64,000 nucleotides of DNA from Eledone cirrhosa (Eukaryota): positions 172,050,001 through 172,114,000 of the forward strand of contig OZ024740.1 in the NCBI GenBank assembly GCA_964016885.1. The letters run 5' to 3'. Under the pieces are notes generated by a model that did no database searches, was not told where the DNA came from, and was given only the letters and a program-made list of their open reading frames with translations. Within the stretch, counting starts at the first letter, position 1. The number at the start of each line of letters is the position of its first letter. A program made the position numbers and the translations under genes. This document shows, one piece after another, positions 3,268 through 45,342 of the stretch.

Positions 3268-3518
3268 GCGAGGGAATTGTGGTAAGGAACCAGATGGACC
3301 ATAACGCACCAGAGTACTCAATACTTAGGGTAGTAGAGTGGGTAATAGGAAAAGGTATGACCCCGACGGCAGAGCTCAAGCCATTTCGACGGCTATTTCT
3401 GGACTAAATTAGAATTTTTAGCCTGGTAAATAAATTTATTTACCAGGCTAAAAATTTAGTCCAGAAATAGCCGTCGAAACGGCTTCAGCTCTGCCGTCGG
3501 GGTCATACCTTTTCCTAT
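3268..3518 (-). mobile_element. Fold-back element family A, copy 1 (palindrome plus tail) in (TA)n
   Basis: Arms about 3345-3434 and 3435-3518 with loopless centre gcctggtaaataaa|tttatttaccaggc. Unpaired tail 3268-3344. TA tracts on both sides. Confidence 0.85.
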
Positions 3519-5469
3519 ATATATATATATATATATATATATATATATATATATATATATATATATATATATAAAATATTATATATATGTATTACATGTG
3601 TTGTGTACATATTATGTGCACACGCACACGTACACAGTGTCTTGTATTGTGTTGTGTTGTATCACAACATACAGTCTGTATGAAGCTAGAGAGAAATATG
3701 AATGTTTTGAGTGAAATACAAGAGGGCGAGAAAACGGCAAATAGAGAGGGAGAGGTGGAAGGGATATTACAGTGAGGAAGAGAGAAAGCTAGTGAGATAG
3801 AAAGAACGAAGTAAAGTAAGATACAGAGAGGAGGGTGGTAAAAGATGCTGTTACAAGTGTCTGGCAGATGTTATCTAAAGTGTATGGTGGTAGTAGAAAA
3901 GCATTGCTAATTGGACAGAAAGATAGGGGATCGTGAATGAATGTGGCAACTAGTTGGAGTTTGGTATATACAAATATAAACACACATACACAGACACAAT
4001 CGCACACACACACACATAGGCAGACGTAAAAACGATTTTTTTTTTATCACGCTCTCCTATTGTAGCAACACGTACTATCGGAGAGCTCGCTTACATCAAC
4101 AATACTATAGACGGCTCGTGTGCTTACACAACCATATAAATACATACACACACATATATATATACATGCACACATATACATACAGTACGTTATCTGGAAT
4201 AAAACAAAACTAGAAGAGATAGTCACGAATGGAACCCACTCTCTTCATAGTTAATGTCTAATCGATCAAAGCTGACCTGATCATAAACAACAGGTTCTTG
4301 AACCTCCCCCTCTCTCTCTCTCTATTTTTTTTTAATACTATATATACACATATTACATGTACTCTCTCTCTCTCATATATATATATATATATATATATAT
4401 AAATAAATATACACACACACACATGTAATATATATGTGTATGTATAGTATAGAATACTTTTAAAACATTATAATCATACATGTATTGTGCATGTTATACT
4501 TATAGCAATATACAAACACACACACAACTTAGAGGGTTACTTGAACCTAGGCTCATGCATATATTTAATGTATAGCAGATCTCTGAAAACTTATCTGAAA
4601 ACAAGTTGCTATCAGTGAGTTTTATACAAGGTCTGGTTTGTTGCTTGATTGCGGGGGAGGGCATATATTCTCCATCTCTAACTGACACTATCTGAACCCT
4701 TACCATTATTTATATATATATATACATATATATATATATATATATATATATACATACATAACATTAACAGACACGCACATACATGCATCCGCATCCATCC
4801 ATGCACACATACACACACACGTGTATATAAATTAAAAATATAAATGTCCCAAATAAAATCAAAGATATCGCCCACCGATTTCGACCTGATCACAGCAAAT
4901 TACTTCAATGAGATTAGAAGGAAAGAATATGTAGTTTTCTTTGAACTGTTTTTTGATCTCCAGCATCTAAAATGAAGGGAGATGGGGGGGGGGGGGGGTG
5001 TAAAAATACAACCCCCTTCCCCCACTCTGCCATGAGATCCCCCACCCCCACCCCAAACAACCACTGCCGAATCCCAAACGTCTCCACCCAAAGGCGAAAA
5101 GAAAAGAAGGGAAGAATAATAAAACGGGGAAAAAAGCCATCACTGCTACCATATCTATAAAACAAAATTAACCGCCATCCCCACCTGTATCACCACAACC
5201 ACCACCACCACCACCATCATCACCATAACTATTAATATCCACAGTCACAGCCGCCCCGCCGCCCTACATGTATTACCTACACAACCACTAGCTTAGCACC
5301 ACCGTCACTACAACTATCAAAACTCGCCGCCACCACCCCATTAACACTGCCAATGTCACTAAGTTTCCTCCTACGCAATCAACAACAAATACAACTTCTC
5401 TCTACCGCCGCCACCTCCACACGGCTGTCGCTGTTTGGATATTGCCCTGGTGGCAAATATAAGAAATGA

Positions 5470-5655
5470 TTGGAGTGGCAGTATCGGTAGAGCTTTGCTG
5501 CATAGAGTTACTGAACTTTACGTTCTGAGTTCAAATCGAGCTGAGGTTAGCTTTGCCTTTCATCCTTATAGGGTCAATAAAATAAAGTACCAGTCACGAC
5601 TTCCCCTCTCCCCAAATTGTTGGCCTTGTGCCTAAGTCAGAAACCATTATTATTA
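5470..5655 (+). mobile_element. tRNA-derived SINE (main family)
   Basis: A-box-like TGGCAGTATCGG, B-box-like GAGTTCAAATC, body ttgcctttcatcc...aaagtaccag, (ATT)n tail. Confidence 0.8.
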
Positions 5656-5895
5656 TCAGTAGTAGCAGTAGTAGCAGTAGTAGCAGCAGTAGTAGTAATA
5701 GTACTAGTAGTGGCAGTTTCGATTTGTCCTTCCATTGCCGATACTATCTGAAGTAACGTGAGATAAGTATTTTGCTCAAGAAGACAATGTGGCGCCCAGT
5801 CCAAGAATCGCACCCACGATTTTATGTTCTTGAGACCAACAATCTAACCACTAGACCGCCTACCTTCCCCCAAAGAATGTAAAACCTACCATTAT

Positions 5896-42894: not shown

Positions 42895-43062
42895 CCGTAT
42901 TTCCCGGCGTCTAAGACGCTACTTTATTCCTAAAATAAGTCTCAAAAATCTACCATGCGTCCTGGAGGCCGAAGGGTGTTTATTAATTTTTTTCAAATTT
43001 TTGGTTTTCAAAATTAGGGTGCGTCCTCGAGGACGTAGCGTCTTCAGCGCCGGGAAATACAG
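42895..43062. mobile_element. pogo/Tigger-like MITE inserted in a SINE
   Basis: TA|ccgtatttcccggcgtctaagacgctac...gtagcgtcttcagcgccgggaaatacag|TA. Confidence 0.8.
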
Positions 43063-45152
43063 TATGTACCATCTCGGTGCTGGTGCTGCATTCTTTCTTT
43101 TCAGCTGCCACATTCAGGATGTTCCGATGCATGAAATCAAAGGCGGGAAAATTGAGAGAGTGTCTGTATGTGCCCGTGGCATTTTCGGTCCCGGTTATTC
43201 GCAGAATTTTCCTTAGAAACTAACTAATAATTGTTCATTGAAACTGCTTCATATTTGCGGAATAATAATTTTTTTAATGTTTTTTTTCCTGGCAATATAT
43301 ATATTTTTAACGCTAAATTATTAATAATAATATACCATATTTGCCGGCCTATTGGACGCCTCTTCGCATAAGACGCTCCCTCTTTTTTTATTATATTTTA
43401 CGTTATATTTTGACGTTTATAGGCATTTTTATCGACCACGTCCAATATTCGCGGTTTTCACTCTTCGCGGGTGCTCTAGGAACGTAACCCCCACGAATTC
43501 CGGGGACAATTGTATAGGTAAAACTCGGTTGAGGTCAACTTTGCCTTTCATTAATCCAATACAAATCAAATACTGCGATTGATATAATCGACTTTTATTT
43601 CTTCAAAATTGCTTACCTTGAGCCTAAATTCGAAAATATTTTATTGGTAGGGCAATTTTGAGTAACTCATAATTACTATTGCTTTGAAAATATAGATATA
43701 TACTTTAAATCATATATTATTTTACTGTTTTCAGGCACTGAACTACAACTATACTGAGACAACACCTCCAAGGAATTTGAGCCATTCATATCATCCCCAG
43801 TAATTATTGCAGTCTCGTACGTGTTTCATTGTATTCTAGTTGAAAAAGAGACGCAAAGCGACACATCATTTGACACTGGTATACACGAACATGCACATAT
43901 TCACTGCTGCATACATGCACATACATACACACACACACACACACACAATCACACTTATACATACAATCACTCAAAGAAGCACAGAAGCACACAGACACAC
44001 ACACGCATTCACACAGACACTTACACAAACACACACATAAATATATCTTATATACTGCAAATACAACAGCGTAATACGCTTCTCCTCTTAAACACCATGA
44101 GGAATGATACACTATCATATATACGCAGACGATTTTCGTATGATATTCAATACTCTTCACTTTAAACTTGCATCACAAATTTATACACCAACAATTTGGT
44201 GCTTAAATGTCGGGCAATTATACAACTTCCCCCTAAAATACCTCGAAACTGGACAACATTTTCCTTTTAAATATTTAAAAAGTAGTTCGATGCATTTATT
44301 TCTAGTATTTTAAACCAACCATCCACAAAAAGGTTGCAACCCGAGCAGAGCAGCCTTCATTTTTTGTTGTGTCACCGAAGAGGGAATTTACATATACAGA
44401 GAAACCAACAAAAATATTGGACACCTGTACATACATCAAACACATACACATACATACATACATACATACATACATACATACATACATACATACATACATA
44501 CGTACATACATACATACGTACATACGTACATACGTACATACGTACATACATGAATGCATACATATATACATACATACATACGTATATACATAGATAAGTG
44601 GTGAATCTTCCGTCATTTTATTAACGTGAACAAGACACAGAGTTCCCCCTACACTGTTTCTTTTTATCCAATTCCATTCACAAGATTTAGATCAAACCGA
44701 GATCATGGTGGATGACACTTGTTCGGAGCGAAATAGATAACCACTCGGTTATTCCTGCCCCAATATACACACACATACATATACAGGAATACATACAGAC
44801 CTAATAATTCCTGGCCTCGATATGTCTTGTGAGACCATAGATCTGTTTGTGGAAAGTTCCTCCCCCAAAGCACAGGCTTGGCCAAAGCTTTTTCTGGAAA
44901 ATCAACAGTTTTCCATGTATGCAGGTCTACCGTCACCCTGGTAGTGGATATTGTGCATGGAAAAGAAAGAGTCAATAAAGCTAGGTACAAATATCCCAGT
45001 AGCATAGCTAGAGGGGGTTAGGGGGTGGTCCGCCCCGAGTGACACTTTTTGGGGGCGGAACATTTGGGTTTACTGTAGTCTATAAGCGTTCTTTTAATGC
45101 TGCGGCATAATATTATAATTGTACACAGACTAGTTAAAATATATATATATAT

Positions 45153-45342
45153 GAAAAAGTATGACCCCGACGGCAGAGCTCAAGCCATTTCGACGGCTAT
45201 TTCTGGACTGAAATAGCCGTCGAAACGGCTTGAGCTCTGCCGTCGGGGTCATACTTTTTCCTATTTCCCTCTCTACTAACCTAAGTATTGAGTACTCTGG
45301 TGCGTTATGGTCCATTTGGTTCCTTACCACAATTCCTTTGTT
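45153..45342 (+). mobile_element. Fold-back element family A, copy 4 (51-bp arms)
   Basis: Arms 45153-45203 and 45210-45260, then the conserved tail; TA flanks. Confidence 0.85.

What the first reader, a model, noticed from the sequence alone, without database searches (positions are those of the whole stretch)
3268..45342. Family A: inverted arm always starts at the same site but varies in length, a footprint of the integration mechanism
Seen: four copies (3268-3518, 9941-10092, 11931-12073, 45153-45342) share a tail of about 77 nt. The inverted arm ends at or within a couple of bases of the ...tttcc|tat junction and measures about 84, 10, 21 and 51 bp. The three longer arms carry the private variants of their own copy (ggggtcataccttttcc, ggggttaaacatttccc, ggggtcatactttttc). 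Inference: the arm is copied from the same template molecule during each insertion, with the TA target pairing at the internal TAT. This argues against classical MITE TIRs.
Basis: partly seen in the sequence, partly recalled or inferred. Interest (0 to 1): 0.75.

Follow-up and report, generated by a model that had tools for sequence, protein, structure and literature searches.

The report
Twin-primed Penelope stubs record copying rules
These four repeats are tiny head-to-head stubs of a Penelope-like jumping gene that has more than 33,000 copies in this genome; their ends suggest that both cut DNA strands likely start copying the element's RNA at two fixed sites, pair with it by about three bases, and likely run off its capped start, which bears on a step of this element class that is still unexplained.

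Summary
Observation real. Family A is not a MITE: it is the end of a Hydra-clade Penelope-like retrotransposon (intact 717-aa RT plus GIY-YIG ORFs elsewhere; 33,123 exact tail matches). An inverted arm of variable length with a one-sided tail is a published Penelope signature. The footprints refine the mechanism. All 15 long head-to-head inserts with both ends in view end once at each of two TAT sites 80 nt apart. Both short arms pile up 55-61 nt from the inner site, where an extra G appears (58 of 100; controls 1 of 26 and 5 of 100), likely the RNA cap. Target duplications are 14 nt (7 of 10). Targets ending GTA shift the start to a matching UAC (17 of 97 vs 1 of 84), which supports pairing. 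Either arm can be the longer, so fold-back is unlikely. This scan already noted the architecture, the capped start and the twin hairpins on other DNA. No RNA data were available.

The parts
3268..3344 (-). copy 1 tail (stretch between the two priming sites); outer end abuts (TA)n
3345..3435 (-). copy 1 forward arm, 91 nt; passes the usual wall at -61 and ends in the TATA-like stretch (atypical)
   Evidence: 0 of 92 young forward arms end at 66-140 nt
3434..3518 (+). copy 1 tail-less arm, 85 nt with a 6-nt deletion, ends at the inner TAT site against (TA)n
9939..9950 (-). copy 2 inverted stub from the inner site, 2 differences from its own forward arm
9953..9953 (+). extra G in front of the forward arm (likely copy of the RNA cap)
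   Evidence: family-wide
9954..10014 (+). copy 2 forward arm, 61 nt, from the inferred transcript start to the inner TAT; holds only the 3' half of a predicted hammerhead (predicted cut after 9994)
10015..10094 (+). copy 2 tail with predicted bulged hairpin (10020-10043) and outer TAT
11931..11951 (-). copy 3 inverted arm, 21 nt, perfect; 3-nt overlap (11949-11951) with the forward arm
11949..11996 (+). copy 3 forward arm, 48 nt
11997..12076 (+). copy 3 tail and outer TAT
45153..45209 (-). copy 4 inverted arm, 57 nt, runs exactly to the wall at -61 and is longer than the forward arm
45210..45264 (+). copy 4 forward arm, 55 nt, blunt junction
45265..45342 (+). copy 4 tail

Best explanation
Family A copies are short insertions of a Hydra-clade Penelope-like retrotransposon, likely made when its protein cuts both strands of a (TA)n tract about 14 nt apart and each 3' end likely primes its own reverse transcript at one of two fixed UAU sites 80 nt apart, after which both likely run off the capped 5' end of the RNA and are joined head to head. 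SHOWN: parent element and ORF; one end at each site; either arm can be longer; wall at -61 with an extra G; 14-nt duplications; start register follows the target's last three bases; both arms of long inserts share source-specific variants. INFERRED: staggered cut with 3' overhangs by a dimeric GIY-YIG domain; pairing of about 3 nt; positioning by the bulged hairpin 3-5 nt downstream of each site; -61 being the Pol II start and the G being the copied cap; joining by end-joining; one RNP, with one RNA or two RNAs from the same source copy. Short stubs would come from the pair of sites near the 5' end of the transcript; long and tandem inserts from the next pair in a read-through transcript not cut by the predicted U3-A8 hammerhead. 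The stubs lack the outer hairpin and would be dead ends.
For: Parent: walking upstream reaches RT and GIY-YIG frames; tandem array of 3542-bp units, 99.6-99.8% identical, with a 717-aa ORF. Family A lies across the unit junction, ATG 90 nt after the outer site, and both sites read TAT. One inner plus one outer end in 15 of 15 long head-to-head inserts with both ends in view; 0 of the first 100 listed inner ends face another listed inner end (read by eye); 4,856 inner ends vs 4,617 tailed arms. Arms are independent: inverted longer in 25, shorter in 21, equal in 19 of 65 simple inserts; in 5 of 20 inner ends picked for lacking a listed partner the forward arm starts at -2 or inside the tail. 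Wall: forward arms 55-61 nt in 55 of 92, 62-65 in 6, 66-140 in 0; inverted 48, 9 and 0 of 77. Extra G at -61: 58 of the first 100 of 281 matches vs 1 of 26 at -58 (p=2e-7) and 5 of the first 100 of 113 at -55. Mirror-image C after the inverted arm: 47 of 100 rows, or 47 of 79 after removing 21 templated rows (hand count, both strands listed). Duplication in 10 of 86 inserts (shuffled mean 0.54, max 4), 14 nt in 7. Pairing: G three bases from the primer end in 17 of 97 shifted starts vs 1 of 84 normal starts (p=2e-4; 3 rows dropped as mutated tails), and the G is duplicated at the far end in 7 of 8 cases with both ends in view. Same source: 31 locus-private variants shared by both arms in 8 of 16 long inserts; within 0.35% vs 1.19% to other loci, p=0.0013.
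Against: No RNA evidence for the start, the cap, the hairpins or ribozyme cleavage. An extra G can also be untemplated addition by the RT. Copy 1 and about ten loci of the first, query-biased search end near -90 on both arms, which the model does not explain. 12 of 22 inserts with an interrupted flank show no exact duplication. The own partner was strictly the nearest arm in only 8 of 16 long inserts, and 'private' is judged against 24 loci only. Some inserts have discordant arms (L122+, L123, L067; L269), tails on both arms (L089, L202) or a single arm (L193, L197, L279, L283). Frangieh 2024 found no homology between start site and target for a Poseidon element in vitro. The hammerhead fold is no better than shuffles (z=0.01) and shows no two-sided covariation in 11 close copies; the inner hairpin is weak (z -1.4 to -2.5). 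Samples are the first places on the largest contigs, not random draws.
Confidence: 0.72

Rival explanations
1. Twin priming as above, but the wall at -61 is an RT stop or an RNA processing site (structure, or the 3' splice-site-like TTTAG there), and the extra G is untemplated addition or the end of an upstream exon.
For: The wall lies in the loop of the predicted hammerhead stem II and the sequence reads like an acceptor; Penelope has a 5' intron (PMC2377424, passages); no RNA data.
Against: G is specific to -61; no constant sequence follows the extra base as an exon would give; the stop lies in a loop, not at the foot of a stem; an initiator-like TT/CAGT with a TATA-like box 29-31 nt upstream fits a start (motif names recalled).
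Confidence: 0.13
2. Snap-back self-priming: one DNA copy folds on itself (on an antisense template, as proposed in PMC3846280) and copies itself to make the inverted arm.
For: Palindromic junctions and high within-copy identity; 19 of 65 inserts have equal arms and arm lengths correlate (rho 0.36).
Against: The inverted arm is often longer than, or has no counterpart in, the forward arm; junctions are blunt (17), 1-nt overlaps (16) or carry inserted bases (27), with 2 nt or more of overlap in only 5 of 65; extra G and C point to run-off from a sense RNA; the correlation is expected from the shared wall.
Confidence: 0.07
3. Arms are made or homogenised after insertion by gene conversion or hairpin repair, so within-copy identity says nothing about the template.
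For: Adjacent palindromes can convert (general knowledge); shared private variants in long arms could arise so.
Against: 0 of 16 informative point variants in short young palindromes are shared by the two arms; arm and tail subfamily agree where the arms barely or do not overlap (L276, L281); conversion gives no fixed inner start and no 14-nt duplication.
Confidence: 0.04
4. A MITE or other DNA transposon with terminal inverted repeats targeting TA.
For: Small size, TA flanks, inverted repeat.
Against: Repeat is not terminal on the tail side; 5' truncation; continuous with an RT plus GIY-YIG ORF; 14-nt duplication; arms cluster by copy.
Confidence: 0.01

Closest known systems
Hydra clade of C-terminal-endonuclease Penelope-like elements (Craig et al. 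2021, PMC8557442; abstract, passages, sections 11 and 15, parts of the supplement read)
   Same: Single ORF, RW[K/R], DKT, CxCx5C linker, GIY-YIG without CCHH, CxxC and CxH, (TA)n target, inverted 5'-truncated copy and one-sided tail; protein visibly akin to Hydra-1_Obim and Hydra-2_Amil (compared by eye).
   Different: Unit 3.5 kb (clade generally under 3 kb); tail 77-80 nt against the 30-40 bp described; hammerhead core U3-A8 instead of canonical; not the same sequence as Hydra-1_Obim; most copies are stubs under 210 bp.
Poseidon PAc in vitro (Frangieh et al. 2024, PMC11167929; parts 1-2 of 4 read)
   Same: Both strands cut and extended; two internal start sites bound the tail; start near a stem-loop; predicted dimer; hammerhead upstream of the start sites.
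   Different: There the start site is not homologous to the target and lies in the ORF; here both sites are in the 5' UTR and match the target by 3 nt. In the parts read the paper does not explain the inverted arm, give a duplication length or describe run-off at a capped end.
Inverted pLTRs of Drosophila virilis and Adineta vaga Penelope (PMC2377424, PMC3846280; passages read)
   Same: [quoted passage not shown]
   Different: Explained there by self-priming on an antisense template; the data here favour two sense-templated cDNAs.
L1 twin priming (PMC11702581, passages read)
   Same: Second RT primed by the other target end; 12-18-bp duplication; extra G from the cap at complete 5' ends.
   Different: In L1 the second site is variable and next to the end of the first cDNA, with little overlap; here it is fixed, so the same stretch is copied twice.

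Membership tests
EN+ Penelope-like element | single ORF with RT and GIY-YIG endonuclease | tested here: met
   717-aa ORF, YRDD at 348, VIY...YIG at 592; best homologue carries PF01541; direct Pfam and PDB scans gave no hit
EN+ Penelope-like element | partial tandems (pLTR), inverted 5'-truncated copy, one-sided tail | tested here: met
Hydra clade | C-terminal EN without CCHH; CxCx5C linker; no Cx2-5CxxC | tested here: met
Hydra clade | RWK motif, DKT motif, CxxC and CxH near the C-terminus | tested here: met
   RWR (37), DKT (117), CNLC (670), CKH (698); RWR is a conservative variant
Hydra clade | insertion into (TA)n | tested here: met
Hydra clade | canonical hammerhead in the pLTR | tested here: inconclusive
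   type I fold with U3-A8 core and variable N7; U3-A8 is a published PLE variant (PMC4209133 passage); Rfam 0 hits; no covariation; cleavage untested
Hydra clade | generally under 3 kb | tested here: not met
   young unit 3542 bp; stated in the paper as a tendency, not a diagnostic
Hydra clade | placement in RT phylogeny | not tested
   reference proteins were seen only in the supplement text, so no tree was built
MITE | terminal inverted repeats of fixed length at both ends, short fixed duplication, transposase partner | tested here: not met
non-LTR retrozyme | tandem small units each with a whole type I hammerhead | tested here: not met
   stubs hold only the 3' half of the motif and are not tandem; definition from 10.64898/2026.07.22.740005, part 1 of 5 read

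The most novel reading that the evidence does not exclude
Penelope-like elements integrate by programmed twin priming: a protein dimer makes a 14-nt staggered cut, two conserved RNA hairpins place the two overhangs on two short UAU templates in the manner of telomerase, both strands copy the same RNA, and run-off at the cap plus end-joining creates the inverted pLTR, the tail and tens of thousands of stubs; the whole cycle can be read from genome footprints.
Probability: 0.5. Interest if true: 0.72.

Novelty: new member of a known kind. Interest (0 to 1): 0.5.

Why it matters
Craig et al. 2021 (section 15) name the origin of the tandem/inverted structures, the tail and the microsatellite bias as open. 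This family is young, has many intact ORFs and leaves base-precise footprints (two start sites, 14-nt stagger, 3-nt pairing, run-off point), so it gives sharp predictions for one in vitro assay and one 5'-end mapping experiment. Pairing of a short RNA template with a repeat primer would also tighten the link to telomerase. Practically, such stubs should be annotated as retroelement ends, not MITEs. The element class and the architecture themselves are known.

Tried and rejected
DNA search of the genome with the 78-nt tail returned nothing because common words are skipped; patterns were used instead. Pfam, PDB sequences and Rfam gave no hit. No RNA holder listed; no reads were laid. My first guess, Neptune clade, was dropped: no Cx2-5CxxC or CCHH. 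Hammerhead covariation test was uninformative. The BLAST parse over-extends arms through a short internal palindrome, so lengths are quoted from the exact parse of the young subfamily, which still breaks at indels (some values under 55 nt and the long arms capped near 295 nt are parse limits). The duplication count had an offset error and was replaced. One mis-parsed row (L100) was left; 32 of 98 copies were not scorable there. L057 and L058 were left out. Literature: searches for Penelope with twin priming, cap or extra G, microhomology and internal initiation listed no paper that reports twin priming, cap G or target pairing for PLEs; most subscription journals are not searched, and I read no supplement of PMC11167929, PMC3846280 or the bioRxiv preprint, which may bear on this. 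No structure or complex prediction was run.

Full report
1. Observation. The four copies are present as described. Exact anatomy: copy 1 (minus strand) has arms of 85 and 91 nt meeting near position -91, counting back from the first tail base; copy 2 has a 12-nt stub, two inserted bases, an extra G and a 61-nt forward arm; copy 3 has a perfect 21-nt arm with a 3-nt overlap; copy 4 has a 57-nt inverted arm running to -61 and a 55-nt forward arm. The window holds no ORF of the element (tblastn). The genome is 3.0 Gb; I did not determine the host.

2. What it is. Longer genomic copies extend upstream from the fixed 3' end into an endonuclease and an RT frame. A protein search found many intact frames, among them a head-to-tail array of 3542-bp units, 99.6-99.8% identical, with a 717-aa ORF. 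Family A is about 87-89% identical to the stretch across the unit junction, and the ATG lies 90 nt after the tail end. The protein has RWR, DKT, YRDD, CxCx5C, a GIY-YIG core without CCHH, CxxC and CxH, the marks of the Hydra clade in PMC8557442 section 11. A 34-mer of the tail has 33,123 exact matches; the youngest subfamily alone has 4,617.

3. The architecture is published. Inverted 5'-truncated copies with a one-sided tail are described for PLEs (PMC8557442; PMC3846280), with repeats that vary in size by copy (PMC2377424). In vitro, a Poseidon protein cuts and extends both strands and starts at two sites that bound the tail (PMC11167929). How the inverted arm arises is left open; self-priming on an antisense template was proposed.

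4. Boundaries. In the parent both ends of the tail read TAT. Of 92 young tails, 77 had an inverted arm in view; 76 abut the microsatellite at the inner site. All 15 long head-to-head inserts with both ends in view have one inner and one outer end, and the ORF can sit on either arm. In 65 simple inserts the inverted arm is longer in 25, shorter in 21, equal in 19; junctions are blunt in 17, overlap by 1 nt in 16 and by 2 nt or more in 5, and carry inserted bases in 27. In 5 of 20 further inner ends the forward arm starts at -2 or inside the tail. One arm is therefore not a fold-back copy of the other. On each side the target's 3' end continues into antisense sequence, as a primed cDNA would.

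5. The wall. Forward arms end at 55-61 nt in 55 of 92, at 62-65 in 6, at 66-140 in none, beyond 140 in 9 and below 55 in 22; inverted arms at 55-61 in 48 of 77, 62-65 in 9, 66-140 in none. Where a forward arm starting at -61 follows TATAT directly, the base between is G in 58, T in 26, A in 9 and C in 7 of the first 100 of 281 (hand count); T and C can be templated and A continues the repeat, but G is neither. At -58 G occurs in 1 of 26, at -55 in 5 of the first 100 of 113. An extra G reflects the cap in L1 insertions (PMC11702581 passage). Position -61 is the A of an initiator-like word with a TATA-like box 29-31 nt upstream (motif names recalled). I infer a capped transcript start; no RNA data test it.

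6. Target. Interrupted flanks reveal duplications in 10 of 86 inserts (shuffles: mean 0.54, maximum 4), 14 nt in 7, and 12, 13 and 16 nt once each; 12 other inserts with an interruption show none. This implies a staggered cut leaving two 3' overhangs. A minor class of arms starts 3 nt further out (329 matches); there the primer ends in GTA, matching the template UAC, in 17 of 97 against 1 of 84 in the usual register (3 rows dropped as mutated tails). In 7 of 8 such inserts with both ends in view the G is duplicated at the far end, so it belongs to the target.

7. Same template? The variable segment of the two arms differs by 0.73 on average within a copy and 2.95 between copies; 41 of 66 are identical. 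These variants are subfamily markers, so this alone shows little. Long arms are more telling: 0.35% within against 1.19% to other loci, and 31 variants seen at one locus only are shared by both arms in 8 of 16 inserts. None of 16 informative point variants in short young palindromes is shared, against later homogenisation. Same source copy is supported; same molecule is not separable; a few inserts are discordant.

8. RNA features. The unit junction folds as a type I hammerhead with a U3-A8 core, the N7 base varying over all four letters, a variant reported in PLEs (PMC4209133); support is by motif only. The stubs hold only its 3' half. Following note e1-9862288 I found a bulged hairpin of the same shape 5 and 3 nt downstream of the two TAT sites, and a similar one by eye at the end of the published Hydra-2_Amil consensus; its role is inferred.

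9. Earlier notes. I reached the two-site and capped-start reading before the look-ups (notebook). Many notes on other DNA of this genome, and one on another genome, report the same architecture, capped start and hairpins; they are not independent support. The snippets shown did not mention the 14-nt duplication, the register shift or the long-arm test.

10. Verdict. Real; a new family of a known clade with a known architecture; the mechanism is better constrained than in the papers I could search, but rests on genome footprints alone. Interest 0.5.

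Noticed in passing
window 10178-10240 (+) and 30395-30420 (+): Canonical minimal hammerhead cores of other repeats, the first 85 nt from copy 2; likely ends of other Penelope-like families.
   Followed up: no
window 3345-3518; L002-L009, L011: In older copies both arms often end near -90, in the TATA-like stretch: a possible second start or stop; the search that found them was biased to this form.
   Followed up: partly
L047+L048 (G000:C1:91.47-91.49 Mb): Array of four and a half near-identical 3542-bp units with intact ORFs, joined at its truncated end to a 55-bp tandem repeat.
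   Followed up: partly
window 45153; L070, L078, L084, L136, L246: Variant start ATAT-G instead of ATA-GG (5 of 86 inserts): likely extension of a primer with one mismatched terminal base.
   Followed up: partly
L099, L122-, L155: Insertions beside (GA)n flanks start 3-5 nt inside the usual site, at a purine match.
   Followed up: no
L206, L238, L255, L231: Junctions with several short repeats of the arm end, suggesting repeated template jumps.
   Followed up: no
window about 20200-21900: Long, very AT-rich 12-bp-period tandem array; the window also holds 200 N.
   Followed up: no
L033 about 8311-8745 of the reversed locus: GIY-YIG frame of a second, diverged Hydra-like family.
   Followed up: no
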